From assembly GCA_019894795.1 (NCBI GenBank), contig JAGXNV010000027.1:1-18895 (forward strand): DNA of 18,895 nt. The letters run 5' to 3'. Positions 6,888-7,070 of the stretch are shown in pieces. The number at the start of each line of letters is the position of its first letter. Position 1 is the stretch's first letter. A program made the position numbers and the translations under genes. The DNA is from Candidatus Heimdallarchaeota archaeon. GTDB lineage: Archaea; Asgardarchaeota; Heimdallarchaeia; Heimdallarchaeales; Heimdallarchaeaceae. The notes beneath the pieces were generated by a model. The model was not told the origin of the DNA and did no database searches. It saw only the letters and a list, made by a program, of their open reading frames with translations.

Positions 6888-7070
6888 ACCTAGCAAGGAT
6901 TTCAGGTTCGGAATGAGTCTGAGTGTTACCCCTTCACTATGGCCGCGACGAATCGCAACTTATGACCTTTCCCAAGTCCTCTCGGAACATAGTACCAAGC
7001 CACACGTGGAAGAGCTTAACTTTCCCGATCATCTGGAACGCATCCAGATGTATATCTGACCTTACTAGGC
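6888..7070 (-). rRNA. 5S rRNA, circularly permuted gene (3' half, UUCG cap, 5' half) inside a terminal helix
   Basis: Minus strand 7024..6953 reads GAAAGUUAAGCUCUUCCACGUGUGGCUUGGUACUAUGUUCCGAGAGGACUUGGGAAAGGUCAUAAGUUGCGA, matching the canonical loop B / helix II 3' strand, loop E, helix IV-V and helix I 3' strand. UUCG follows at 6952..6949. Then 6948..6900 reads UCGCGGCCAUAGUGAAGGGGUAACACUCAGACUCAUUCCGAACCUGAAA, matching the canonical helix I 5' strand, helix II, helix III and loop C. Helix pairings are checked in the findings. The flanks CCUAGUAAGG (7069..7060) and CCUUGCUAGG (6898..6889) pair over 10 bp. Confidence 0.8.
7030..7050 (-). other. Perfect 8-bp hairpin in the 5' part of the permuted 5S transcript
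   Basis: CAUCUGGA-UGCGU-UCCAGAUG on the minus strand. It lies between the terminal helix and the start of the 5S-homologous sequence. Confidence 0.6.

What the first reader, a model, noticed from the sequence alone, without database searches (positions are those of the whole stretch)
6888..7070. Circularly permuted 5S rRNA gene: 3' half, UUCG-capped helix I, then 5' half
The minus-strand RNA reads 5'-GCCUAGUAAGG-UCAG-AUAUA-[CAUCUGGA-UGCGU-UCCAGAUG]-AUCGG-GAAAGUUAAGCUCUUCCACGUGUGGCUUGGUACUAUGUUCCGAGAGGACUUGGGAAAGGUCAUAAGUUGCGA-UUCG-UCGCGGCCAUAGUGAAGGGGUAACACUCAGACUCAUUCCGAACCUGAAA-U-CCUUGCUAGGU-3'. Every hallmark of an archaeal 5S rRNA is present, but the order is rotated. GCGGCCAUAG...CAUUCCGAAC normally opens the molecule; here it lies 3' of GAAAGUUAAGC...GGUACU...GGGAAA, which normally closes it. 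The canonical helices still form across the rotated order. Helix I: UCGCGGC (6948..6942) pairs with GUUGCGA (6959..6953), 7 bp including 2 G-U, and is closed by a UUCG tetraloop (6952..6949) where the natural 5' and 3' ends would be. Helix II: GUG-AAGGG (6937..6930) pairs with CUCUU-C-CAC (7014..7006), with C7009 bulged. Helix III: UCAG (6922..6919) pairs with CUGA (6905..6902) around loop C ACUCAUUCCGAAC. The 5S-homologous part (7023..6900) is 124 nt, a normal 5S length. The new ends fall between helix III and the loop B 3' strand. In a canonical 5S, CCUGAA and AGUUAAGC would be contiguous; here they sit at opposite ends of the gene. The segment just upstream, GCGUUCCAGAUGAUCGGGAAAGUUAAGC, looks like a decayed loop C / helix III remnant. 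That would fit an origin by tandem duplication followed by loss of the outer halves. Permuted tRNA genes, a permuted SRP RNA and permuted or circularised large rRNAs are known in some archaea, and permuted 5S is known in some mitochondria. I am not aware of a permuted chromosomal 5S rRNA gene in an archaeon. Standard 5S covariance models would probably give only split or truncated hits, so such genomes could be scored as lacking 5S.
Basis: partly seen in the sequence, partly recalled or inferred. Interest (0 to 1): 0.92.

Follow-up and report, generated by a model that had tools for sequence, protein, structure and literature searches.

The report
Circularly permuted 5S rRNA gene
This Asgard (Heimdall-group) archaeon encodes its 5S ribosomal RNA with the two halves in swapped order, a conserved arrangement across several Asgard lineages that standard 5S gene finders miss.

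Summary
Window 7070..6888 (minus strand) encodes a 183-nt RNA. All canonical archaeal 5S helices and signature loops are present, but the order is 3' half, UUCG-capped helix I, then 5' half, all enclosed by a new 11-bp terminal helix.

- **Standard search:** Rfam's 5S model gives only two sub-threshold hits (17.4 and 15.8 bits in one scan; 20.1 bits for the 3' half in a narrower one; cutoff 38).
- **Rotation test:** I built a covariance model only from canonical archaeal 5S genes and rotated them in silico at the same point. It matches 7022..6902 end to end at 113 bits (E about 5e-26).
- **Distribution:** The same arrangement occurs in 37 loci I fetched. These cover many Heimdallarchaeota, both closed Ca. 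Heimdallarchaeum genomes (two copies each), and Jord-, Baldr- and Njordarchaeota.
- **Covariation:** 24 of 30 core pairs show compensatory changes. The terminal helix differs in sequence between lineages.
- **Prior report:** The authors of the closed Heimdallarchaeum genomes wrote that 5S genes "could not be predicted".
- **Transcription signals:** An upstream TATA box and a downstream T-run indicate a self-contained transcription unit. No bulge-helix-bulge motif is present, so the mature RNA probably stays permuted and linear. This last point is inferred.

I found no description of this in the searched literature, and Rfam 15 gave no match above threshold.

The parts
7100..7112 (-). Conserved upstream block (window GCTAATAGTAAAC; CCAATAG(T/C)AA.. 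in relatives), a BRE-like element next to the TATA box
   Evidence: The upstream flanks of the Heimdall-type loci share this block, whereas the spacer from -22 to -1 is variable and T-rich. Its promoter role is inferred.
7093..7099 (-). TATA-like box TTAAAAA, at -29..-23 relative to the first base of the terminal helix
   Evidence: Read from the sequence. Equivalent boxes are TTAAAAA or TTCAAAA in most Heimdall-type loci and TTTATAT in the Jord-like and Baldr loci (L020, L046, L031), at about -31 to -20. Njord-type L035 and L022 have a TATA-like box farther upstream (about -45 to -35), and L049 has none. The distance fits the archaeal rule of a TATA box centred near -26/-27 (established knowledge). 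The transcription start site is inferred.
7060..7070 (-). Terminal helix, 5' strand (GCCUAGUAAGG)
   Evidence: It pairs with 6898..6888 over 11 bp. In A2, 10 of these 11 pairs show changes on both sides. Other lineages have 11-16 bp helices (26 bp in L049) with unrelated sequences. The median stem score is about 21, against 12.8 +/- 2.2 for shuffled flanks.
7056..7059 (-). Leader UCAG, identical to the helix III 5' strand. CAG is at least 90% conserved in Heimdall-type sequences.
   Evidence: Alignment A2. In the single-sequence MFE fold it pairs with CUGA 6905..6902 instead of the true helix III strand. Its role is unexplained.
7030..7050 (-). Extra hairpin CAUCUGGA-UGCGU-UCCAGAUG. It is specific to Heimdall-type sequences and absent from the Jord, Baldr and Njord versions.
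   Evidence: Four of the 6 pairs predicted by RNAalifold have compensatory changes, and 98.7% of cells are paired. Its absence in L020, L022, L031, L035 and L046 is seen.
7023..7029 (-). Linker AUCGGGA. It is a possible remnant of loop C and the helix III 3' strand from an upstream gene copy.
   Evidence: Other lineages keep CCGG or CGUG directly before AAG(C/U)(U/C)AAGC, resembling the canonical ACGG-AAGUUAAGC. This is an inference.
7014..7022 (-). Loop B 3' strand, AAGUUAAGC. The 5S-homologous core begins here.
   Evidence: It aligns to positions 1-9 of model R1, which are invariant in canonical 5S.
7006..7014 (-). Helix II 3' strand (CUCUUCCAC)
   Evidence: It pairs with 6937..6930. All 5 modelled pairs show compensatory changes in A4.
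6960..7005 (-). Gamma domain: helix V, loop E (GGUACU...UGGGAA), helix IV and loop D
   Evidence: Rfam's 5S model positions 32-120 align here. It also aligns to R1. In A4, 6 of 6 helix V pairs and 5 of 8 loop E/helix IV pairs show compensatory changes.
6953..6959 (-). Helix I 3' strand (GUUGCGA)
   Evidence: It pairs with 6948..6942. 100% of cells are paired, and 4 of 7 pairs show changes on both sides across lineages.
6949..6952 (-). UUCG tetraloop closing helix I, at the position where canonical 5S has its 5' and 3' ends
   Evidence: The loop is UUCG, UGCG, UACG, UAUG, CACG, CUCG or GUUA in relatives. Helix I is 7-13 bp long.
6942..6948 (-). Helix I 5' strand (UCGCGGC)
6923..6941 (-). Loop A (CAUAG), helix II 5' strand (GUGAAGGG) and loop B 5' strand (GUAACAC)
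   Evidence: It aligns to R1.
6902..6922 (-). Helix III (UCAG/CUGA) with loop C (ACUCAUUCCGAAC). The 5S-homologous core ends here.
   Evidence: It aligns to R1 positions 101-121. All 4 helix III pairs covary across lineages.
6888..6898 (-). Terminal helix, 3' strand (CCUUGCUAGGU), preceded by the 3-nt linker AAU (6901..6899)
6875..6887 (-). T-run and conserved ACGTTTAC immediately after the terminal helix, a probable oligo-T terminator
   Evidence: Many Heimdall-type relatives read GGT-TTTTT-ACGTTTAC. All lineages have a T-run within about 20 nt downstream. Terminator function is inferred from established knowledge of archaeal oligo-T termination.

Best explanation
Window 7070..6888 (minus strand) is a functional, circularly permuted 5S rRNA gene of a Heimdall-group Asgard archaeon. 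Its nearest homologues include MAGs that GTDB places in Heimdallarchaeia order UBA460.

**Gene order.** Terminal-helix 5' strand; a lineage-specific hairpin; loop B 3' strand; helix II 3' strand; the gamma domain (helix V, loop E, helix IV, loop D); helix I 3' strand; UUCG; helix I 5' strand; loop A; helix II 5' strand; loop B; helix III with loop C; terminal-helix 3' strand.

**Fold.** The RNA forms the ordinary three-armed 5S shape. Helix I is a closed hairpin. The chain ends emerge from the 3' side of loop B, where a new 11-bp helix holds them together.

**Expression (inferred).** It is its own transcription unit. A TATA box lies at -29..-23 and an oligo-T stretch follows the helix directly. 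The primary transcript of about 183-190 nt therefore needs little or no trimming.

**Mature form (inferred).** Because there is no bulge-helix-bulge motif, the mature RNA most likely stays linear and permuted, and enters the 50S central protuberance in that form.

**Origin (inferred).** Tandem duplication of a canonical 5S gene followed by loss of the outer halves.

The arrangement is ancestral to a large part of the Asgard archaea. In the two closed Heimdallarchaeum genomes it appears to be the only 5S.
For: **Shown by tools**
- Model R1 was built only from 25 canonical archaeal 5S genes; 20 of those loci were checked with Rfam and scored 81-112 bits. After in-silico rotation, R1 hits 7022..6902 over the full length at 113.3 bits, E 5e-26, with no gaps. 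The next best hit in the window is 8.7 bits.
- R1 scores 86-132 bits, full length, in 37 other loci. It scores nothing in the 14 chance-hit loci. It gives only two half-hits (32-55 bits) on canonical genes.
- The rotated window sequence aligns globally to a canonical 5S (L141) at 77% identity with one gap.
- De novo RNAalifold on 25 Heimdall-type sequences returns the permuted fold. 25 of 51 pairs show compensatory changes. 98.3% of cells are paired against 28-46% when slid, and 0 of 500 shuffles reach the observed value.
- Across 30 distinct sequences from all lineages, 97.3% of cells are paired and 24 of 30 pairs have changes on both sides, against 5-11 in slid controls.
- The helix I cap is always a tetraloop, while the stem varies from 7 to 13 bp. 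The terminal helix is 11-16 bp (26 bp in one locus) with unrelated sequences in different lineages.
- Both closed Heimdallarchaeum genomes carry two permuted copies each. Their authors could not predict a 5S gene 'using various approaches' (PMC8813620).
- Rfam calls no 5S at gathering threshold in the window or in 18 permuted loci.

**Read from the sequence**
- Conserved TATA-like boxes and T-runs flank the terminal helix.
Against: - No RNA data are available. Expression, the mature ends, linear versus circular form, and ribosome incorporation are all inferred.
- I could not scan whole genomes for a canonical 5S. Its absence rests on one published statement for two closed genomes.
- Two papers list a '5S rRNA gene' as present in a Jordarchaeum MAG and a Kariarchaeum MAG (PMC9723677; bioRxiv 10.1101/2020.10.19.343400). 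This could reflect partial hits to the permuted gene, a canonical copy, or contamination.
- The single-sequence MFE fold prefers an alternative pairing of the leader UCAG with CUGA over helix III.
- In some non-Heimdall loci the TATA-to-helix and helix-to-T-run distances are longer. L035 and L022 have a TATA box about 35-45 nt upstream, and L049 has none. Some trimming must therefore occur there.
Confidence: 0.85

Rival explanations
1. The permuted transcript is only a precursor. Its ends are ligated to give a circular 5S rRNA, which is either the mature form or an intermediate. This would parallel permuted tRNA genes and the circular rRNA species of other archaea.
For: The terminal helix brings the 5' and 3' ends together. 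Permuted tRNA genes are expressed through a circular RNA intermediate (cited in PMC4267664). Circular or permuted 23S rRNAs are known in archaea (PMC7758197 and PMC12918454, listed). A short U-tail could supply a loop for ligation (inference).
Against: There is no bulge-helix-bulge motif. The terminal helix is continuous, with no bulges and at most one mismatch in the scoring used, in all lineages examined. The only BHB-like feature is an alternative fold: a 3-nt AAU bulge plus the 4-bp UCAG/CUGA. It lacks the second bulge and helix, and it does not exist in the non-Heimdall versions. A primary transcript starting at the helix would carry a 5' triphosphate, which is not an RtcB substrate (established knowledge). 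The selected UNCG-type caps on helix I argue that this end stays closed.
Confidence: 0.1
2. The locus is a rearranged 5S pseudogene or a 5S-derived non-ribosomal small RNA, and the real 5S is a canonical or very divergent gene elsewhere in the genome.
For: Whole genomes could not be scanned here. Two Asgard MAG descriptions list a 5S gene as present.
Against: All functional 5S signature elements are kept under strong purifying selection, with compensatory substitutions across at least four Asgard lineages. A promoter and a terminator are conserved. There are two permuted paralogues per closed genome and no predictable canonical 5S there. The canonical-order metagenome scan used a pattern that a canonical-order version of this sequence would match. 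Among the 54 recovered canonical sequences that I compared, none was closer than 77% to the rotated window sequence. The closest one lies in a locus whose tested protein is most similar to Thermoplasmatota proteins.
Confidence: 0.04
3. The arrangement is an assembly or chimera artefact at the UUCG junction or at the flanks.
For: None was found. Most sources are MAGs, which can contain misassemblies.
Against: The identical architecture occurs in 37 loci from independent studies and assemblers, including two closed chromosomes. The junction hairpin itself covaries and varies in length.
Confidence: 0.01

Closest known systems
Canonical archaeal 5S rRNA (Rfam RF00001)
   Same: It has all five helices and loops A-E. 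The signature sequences are present: CCAUAG, CAUUCCGAAC, AAGUUAAGC and GUACU...UGGGAA. The core is 121 nt. After rotation it is 77% identical to a canonical archaeal 5S and scores 113 bits against a rotated canonical model.
   Different: The 5'-to-3' connectivity is rotated. Helix I is a closed, tetraloop-capped hairpin. The termini lie on the 3' side of loop B, between helix III and AAGUUAAGC, and are closed by a new 11-bp helix. About 60 extra nucleotides are present. It fails the Rfam gathering score (17-20 bits against 38). It is not linked to 16S or 23S genes.
Permuted mitochondrial 5S rRNA of brown algae and other stramenopiles (mtPerm-5S; Valach et al. 2014, PMC4267664)
   Same: It is a 5S rRNA whose final product, not just its gene, is thought to have non-canonical termini with helix I replaced by a closed hairpin. 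In both cases it was discovered because standard models missed it.
   Different: In brown algae the beta and gamma domains keep their order. The ends move only to the alpha/gamma junction in loop A, giving an open three-way junction. Here the breakpoint lies inside the beta domain, so the gene halves are truly swapped and a new closing helix is added. The setting also differs: organelle versus archaeal chromosome. No mtPerm-5S hit was reported here, although overlapping same-clan hits are suppressed by the tool.
Circularly permuted tRNA genes (Cyanidioschyzon merolae) and, from my own knowledge, the permuted SRP RNA gene of Thermoproteus
   Same: The 3' half of a structural RNA is encoded upstream of the 5' half, with the transcript ends paired to each other (tRNA case as cited in PMC4267664).
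   Different: Those systems restore the normal RNA through a circular intermediate. No BHB motif is present here, and the canonical ends are sealed by a selected UNCG-type tetraloop.
Post-transcriptionally permuted or circular 23S rRNA in Thermococcales and other archaea (PMC7758197; PMC12918454)
   Same: An archaeal large-subunit rRNA species functions with non-canonical termini (abstracts and passages).
   Different: In those cases the gene order is canonical and the permutation arises by RNA processing. Here the permutation is encoded in the DNA.
5S rRNA expansion segments (Halococcus morrhuae insertion, PMC7530397; survey PMC7812874)
   Same: Extra helices are tolerated on the 5S scaffold without disrupting the canonical structure (abstracts).
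   Different: Those are insertions in a colinear 5S. That survey contains no mention of permutation, Heimdall or Loki archaea; its only 'Asgard' occurrence is a reference title.

Membership tests
5S rRNA (function and fold) | Three-domain secondary structure with helices I-V | tested here: met
   RNAalifold predicts it de novo. 97-98% of cells are paired, and 24 of 30 core pairs show compensatory change.
5S rRNA (function and fold) | Conserved loop sequences: loop A CCAUAG, loop C CAUUCCGAAC, loop B AAGUUAAGC, loop E GUACU/UGGGAA | tested here: met
   All are present and aligned position for position to the rotated canonical model with no gaps. They are invariant or nearly invariant in A2.
5S rRNA (function and fold) | Colinear 5'-to-3' order with both termini in helix I | tested here: not met
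   The order is rotated. Helix I is capped by UUCG at 6952..6949, and the termini lie at 7070 and 6888.
5S rRNA (Rfam RF00001 as curated) | Score at or above the gathering threshold (38 bits) | tested here: not met
   The hits score 17.4, 15.8 and 20.1 bits. There is no 5S hit at gathering threshold in the window or in 18 homologous loci. Canonical controls score 81-112 bits.
5S rRNA (function and fold) | Stable expression and incorporation into the 50S central protuberance with uL18 and uL5 | not testable with these tools
   This needs RNA-seq or Northern blots and ribosome purification or cryo-EM.
5S rRNA (function and fold) | It is the sole or required 5S of the genome | tested here: inconclusive
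   The authors of two closed Heimdallarchaeum genomes could not predict a 5S, and each genome has two permuted copies. I could not scan whole genomes. Two other MAG descriptions list a 5S gene as present.
Stramenopile mitochondrial permuted 5S (mtPerm-5S) | Helix I replaced by a 5' hairpin, ends at the alpha/gamma junction, beta-to-gamma order unchanged | tested here: not met
   Here the breakpoint lies between helix III and the loop B 3' strand, and gamma precedes beta in the gene.
BHB-dependent permuted RNA genes (permuted tRNA or SRP RNA type) | Bulge-helix-bulge motif formed by the transcript ends | tested here: not met
   The terminal helix is a continuous 11-16 bp stem without bulges in all lineages. 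The alternative UCAG/CUGA fold supplies only one 3-nt bulge.
BHB-dependent permuted RNA genes (permuted tRNA or SRP RNA type) | Circular intermediate, or re-opening at the canonical ends | not testable with these tools
   This needs RNase R treatment and junction RT-PCR or circRNA-seq.

The most novel reading that the evidence does not exclude
A DNA-encoded, truly circularly permuted 5S rRNA is the only 5S rRNA of Heimdallarchaeia and several other Asgard classes (Jord-, Baldr- and Njordarchaeia). It has a tetraloop-sealed helix I and new termini in the beta domain, and it works in the ribosome in this permuted form.

It would then be a rare genomic change shared by the archaea usually placed closest to eukaryotes. 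Eukaryotic 5S is canonical. This would constrain where the eukaryotic stem branches, or else require a reversal. It would also mean these lineages are systematically scored as lacking 5S.
Probability: 0.6. Interest if true: 0.9.

Novelty: new variant of a known kind. Interest (0 to 1): 0.88.

Why it matters
5S rRNA is regarded as essentially invariant in architecture in cellular genomes. One Asgard rRNA study set it aside as 'essentially constant' (PMC7594248).

- **A new kind of cellular 5S.** A chromosomal 5S with swapped halves, conserved across a major archaeal radiation, would be the first such case outside organelles in the literature I could search. It is a deeper permutation than the organellar one.
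- **A practical annotation gap.** The closed Heimdallarchaeum genomes were published without a 5S. As I understand the MIMAG standard (not checked here), a 'high-quality' MAG must have a 5S gene, so Heimdall-group MAGs may be systematically under-rated. The rotated covariance model made here finds these genes at 86-132 bits.
- **Ribosome biology.** Sealing helix I and moving the RNA ends into the beta domain should change how the 5S RNP (uL18, uL5) assembles and how the RNA is protected from exonucleases.
- **Evolution.** The permutation is a discrete, hard-to-reverse character. It is shared by Heimdall-, Njord-, Baldr- and Jord-type archaea. It could therefore serve as a rare genomic change for testing Asgard phylogeny and the placement of eukaryotes, whose 5S is canonical.

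Tried and rejected
- **Rfam at gathering threshold.** On the window and on 18 homologous loci it finds only tRNAs. No dedicated family matches at E up to 10.
- **Source lookup.** Exact-protein lookup of the neighbouring VIT1 gene found nothing. Homologues were used instead.
- **blastn of the rotated sequence against plasmids.** It gave only about 49% coverage. The hits do span the artificial junction (query 5-61) and lie in Bacillus, Priestia and actinobacterial plasmids, probably bacterial 5S genes, best E 6e-4. I did not verify them with Rfam, so this counts as weak support only.
- **BHB or circularisation route.** I looked for bulges in the terminal helix in all lineages and found none. The AAU-bulge plus UCAG/CUGA alternative is incomplete and specific to Heimdall-type sequences.
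- **Chance hits.** Fourteen of the 48 genome contigs pattern hits are chance matches inside bacterial or Nitrososphaerales sequence. They score nothing with R1.
- **A canonical-order Asgard comparator.** The closest canonical 5S recovered (L141, 77%) lies in a locus whose tested protein is 86-87% identical to Thermoplasmatota proteins. I therefore could not show which Asgard lineages, if any, keep the canonical order.
- **Finer taxonomy.** It was obtained for only three MAGs, all GTDB Heimdallarchaeia order UBA460. The mBio Hodarchaeales paper did not help.
- **DNA-level inverted repeat.** A repeat between the promoter's GTAAAC and the downstream GTTTAC is not conserved in relatives and was dropped.
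Full report
**1. What is in the sequence**

All the helix coordinates it quoted are correct.

Standard tools see almost nothing here. 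At Rfam gathering thresholds the whole 18.9-kb window yields only a tRNA, which ARAGORN calls tRNA-Ser(GCU), at 7201..7283 on the plus strand. In permissive mode the 5S_rRNA model gives two sub-threshold hits on the minus strand, in reversed order: 6957..7076 at 17.4 bits and 6845..6950 at 15.8 bits. A narrower scan aligns model positions 32-120, the 3' two-thirds of 5S, to 7030..6950 at 20.1 bits, flagged as 5'-truncated. The gathering score is 38 bits.

**2. The rotation test**

I could not feed an artificial sequence to Rfam, so I ran the mirror-image experiment.

- A metagenome scan with a canonical-order 5S pattern returned 93 loci, giving 58 distinct canonical 5S sequences.
- Twenty of those loci were checked with Rfam. 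All are bona fide 5S genes (81-112 bits, full length), and many sit next to a 23S gene.
- I took 25 diverse sequences and rotated each in silico. The break was placed right after the helix III 3' strand, and helix I was trimmed to 7 bp and closed with UUCG. They were then aligned (A3) and built into covariance model R1.

No Asgard sequence went into the model. The break point and the UUCG cap were chosen to mirror this locus, so the cap contributes a few bits to the score.

With filters off, R1 matches window 7022..6902 on the minus strand from model position 1 to 121 without a gap, at 113.3 bits, E about 5e-26. The next best hit in the window scores 8.7 bits. Conversely, R1 gives only two half-hits (32-55 bits) on each true canonical gene. 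The rotated window sequence also aligns globally with a canonical archaeal 5S (L141) at 77% identity with one gap. The locus is therefore a complete 5S in rotated order.

**3. It is a conserved, selected gene and not an accident**

*Close relatives.* The neighbouring VIT1 gene has homologues at 71-92% identity. Their contigs are syntenic and carry the same element at 86-96% identity.

*Wider distribution.* A scan of one genome per GTDB species, using a pattern specific to the permuted order, gave 48 loci. Fourteen are chance matches in bacterial or Nitrososphaerales sequence. The rest are genuine, and they include:
- many records labelled Candidatus Heimdallarchaeota, including AB_125
- both closed chromosomes, Ca. 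Heimdallarchaeum aukensis CP084166.1 and Ca. H. endolithica CP084167.1, with two copies each
- Jordarchaeia, Baldrarchaeota, Njordarchaeota, 'Promethearchaeati' and a few unclassified archaea

In total 37 fetched loci score 86-132 bits, full length, with R1. Three of the MAGs are classified by GTDB as Heimdallarchaeia order UBA460 (supplement of PMC10491686). The window groups with these by sequence.

*Covariation.* RNAalifold on 25 distinct Heimdall-type sequences (A2) predicts the permuted 5S fold de novo, and 25 of 51 pairs carry compensatory double changes.

| Alignment | Cells paired | Slid controls | Pairs changed on both sides | Slid controls | Shuffles reaching observed |
|---|---|---|---|---|---|
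| A2 (25 Heimdall-type sequences, 51 pairs) | 98.3% | 28-46% | 25 | 3-6 | 0/500 |
| A4 (30 distinct sequences, all lineages, 30 core pairs) | 97.3% | 28-52% | 24 | 5-11 | 0/500 |

A4 was aligned to the model, so its counts lean towards that structure. A2 is a plain MAFFT alignment and gives the same answer.

**4. The parts that are new relative to canonical 5S**

- **Helix I cap.** Helix I is always closed by a tetraloop: UUCG, UGCG, UACG, UAUG, CACG, CUCG or GUUA. The stem ranges from 7 bp here to 12-13 bp in the Njord-type sequences. A selected, mostly UNCG-type cap on a stem of variable length suggests a stable structural hairpin rather than a processing site.
- **Terminal helix.** The two ends of the RNA are always joined by a continuous helix of 11-16 bp, or 26 bp in L049. 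Its sequence is unrelated between lineages, for example GCCUAGUAAGG, UCUCAACGAUGU, UCUAAUGGCAG, UGCUGGGCGCCAUGA, GGUGCGGCAUCC and AACCCGGCACCCCGGA. In A2, 10 of its 11 pairs show compensatory changes. Observed stem scores have a median of about 21, against 12.8 +/- 2.2 for shuffled flanks.
- **Extra hairpin.** Heimdall-type genes have an extra 8-bp hairpin (7050..7030). Four of the 6 pairs predicted by RNAalifold covary. The Jord, Baldr and Njord versions lack it.
- **Breakpoint.** It is the same everywhere: after the helix III 3' strand plus AA(A), and before AAG(U/C)(U/C)AAGC. The non-Heimdall versions still carry CCGG or CGUG just upstream of AAGYYAAGC, which looks like a second copy of the helix III 3' strand. 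That pattern is what a tandem duplication followed by loss of the outer halves would leave. This origin is an inference.

**5. How it is probably expressed**

This section is inference from the sequence. A TATA-like box, TTAAAAA (7099..7093), lies 29-23 nt upstream of the first base of the terminal helix. It is preceded by a block that is conserved among Heimdall-type loci, while the spacer varies. The Jord-like and Baldr loci (L020, L046, L031) have TTTATAT at about -31 to -20. Njord-type L035 and L022 have their TATA-like box farther upstream, at about -45 to -35. L049 has no evident TATA box.

A T-run follows the terminal helix directly in Heimdall-type loci, typically GGT-TTTTT-ACGTTTAC. 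In the others it lies within about 20 nt. No 16S or 23S gene is nearby in any of 18 loci. A tRNA gene is usually within a few hundred bases.

The gene therefore looks like a self-contained transcription unit. Its primary transcript starts and ends at the terminal helix, so little processing is needed.

I looked for the bulge-helix-bulge motif that drives circularisation of permuted tRNAs and of 16S and 23S precursors in archaea. The terminal helix has no bulges in any lineage. The only BHB-like element is an alternative fold in which the leader UCAG (7059..7056) pairs with CUGA (6905..6902), leaving a 3-nt AAU bulge. It has no second bulge or helix and is absent outside the Heimdall type.

My best reading is that the mature RNA stays linear and permuted, at about 183 nt. 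I put this at roughly 0.65-0.7 given that the gene is functional. A ligated circle is a minor alternative at about 0.1. Re-opening at the UUCG loop is unlikely.

**6. Is it the organism's only 5S?**

I could not scan whole genomes. The strongest evidence is published. [quoted passage not shown] Those are the two genomes in which I find two permuted copies each.

The canonical-order scan of 241 million metagenome records used a pattern that a canonical-order version of this lineage's 5S would match. Among the 54 recovered canonical sequences that I compared, none was closer than 77% to the rotated window sequence. The closest one lies in a locus whose tested protein is 86-87% identical to Thermoplasmatota proteins.

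One caveat remains. Two papers list a '5S rRNA gene' among the contents of a Jordarchaeum MAG and a Kariarchaeum MAG. I cannot tell whether those are partial calls on the permuted gene.

**7. Comparison with what is known**

- **Brown-algal mitochondrial 5S.** This is the nearest precedent. Helix I is replaced by a 5' hairpin and the ends sit at the alpha/gamma junction, but the order of the beta and gamma domains is unchanged (PMC4267664). The present case is a true swap of gene halves, with the breakpoint in the beta domain and a new closing helix, in a cellular chromosome.
- **Permuted tRNA genes.** These are restored to the normal RNA through a circular intermediate (cited). The same is true, from my own knowledge, of the Thermoproteus SRP RNA. 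The BHB requirement is not met here.
- **Permuted or circular 23S rRNAs.** In Thermococcales and other archaea these arise by processing of a colinear gene.
- **Reviews and databases.** A 2023 review of natural RNA permutations lists only the organellar case for 5S (PMC10085705). A survey of 5S expansion segments in bacteria and archaea contains no mention of permutation, Heimdall or Loki archaea. No paper in the library contains 'circularly permuted 5S', and 'permuted 5S' together with archaea returns only the organelle paper. Rfam 15 has no family that matches above threshold.

The library lacks most subscription-journal papers, so a prior description cannot be excluded.

**8. Verdict**

It is a clade-level, conserved, circularly permuted 5S rRNA gene family in Asgard archaea, it is invisible to standard annotation, and it accounts for a published 'missing 5S'. 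It is a new variant of a known kind of molecule. Expression, the mature ends and ribosome incorporation remain to be shown experimentally.

Noticed in passing
window 7201..7283 (+): A tRNA-Ser(GCU) gene lies about 130 nt upstream of the permuted 5S, in divergent orientation. A tRNA gene lies within a few hundred bases of the permuted 5S in most of the 18 homologous loci scanned, and no 16S or 23S gene does.
   Followed up: partly
window 7059..7056 with 6905..6902: The leader UCAG duplicates the helix III 5' strand. In the single-sequence MFE fold it pairs with CUGA, extending the terminal helix past a 3-nt AAU bulge. CAG is at least 90% conserved in Heimdall-type genes. It could be a folding intermediate, a regulatory alternative conformer or a duplication vestige; the role is unexplained.
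   Followed up: partly
L013 and L019 (MAG 8H_bin2); L021/L039 (CP084166.1); L026/L032 (CP084167.1): Genomes carry two permuted 5S paralogues with different terminal helices and leader hairpins. Each paralogue type is shared between the two Heimdallarchaeum species, so the duplication predates their split.
   Followed up: partly
L001 7011..8999: In the syntenic locus of MAG 7H_bin4, a 662-aa ORF lies between VIT1 and the permuted 5S. It has a weak Cas12f1-like TNB hit, suggesting a TnpB-type transposon-associated nuclease. The ORF is absent from the window.
   Followed up: no
L023 (labelled Thorarchaeota QM1B.68) and L046 (labelled Thermoproteota S9B3_HD70): Their permuted 5S genes are nearly identical to Heimdall-type (L041) and Jordarchaeia-type (L020) genes respectively. 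The NCBI organism labels or the binning may be wrong.
   Followed up: no
L049 (archaeon Dive100_bin10.34) 3278..3397 and flanks: This is the most divergent permuted 5S (86 bits). It has a 26-bp terminal stem and no recognisable TATA box upstream, so this lineage may use a processed precursor.
   Followed up: no
window 6364..6747 (-) and 5681..6358 (+): Immediately downstream of the 5S is a 127-aa ORF with a marginal DUF5752 match. A shorter ORF (115 aa) sits at the corresponding position in syntenic loci; I did not compare the sequences. Next to it is an OB-fold protein with an RPA_C-like C-terminus.
   Followed up: no
window 8160..17390 (+): A HypE/HypF hydrogenase-maturation pair is followed by NADH-dehydrogenase and Mrp-antiporter-like membrane subunits. 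Gene order is conserved with the related MAGs.
   Followed up: no
L031 4443..4566 and L048 1723..1820: The tRNA hits are 124 and 98 nt long, which implies intron-containing tRNA genes near the permuted 5S in Baldr-type and unclassified Asgard loci.
   Followed up: no
window 6875..6882 and homologous positions: The motif ACGTTTAC is conserved just after the T-run in most Heimdall-type loci. It may be part of the terminator or an unrelated conserved element.
   Followed up: no
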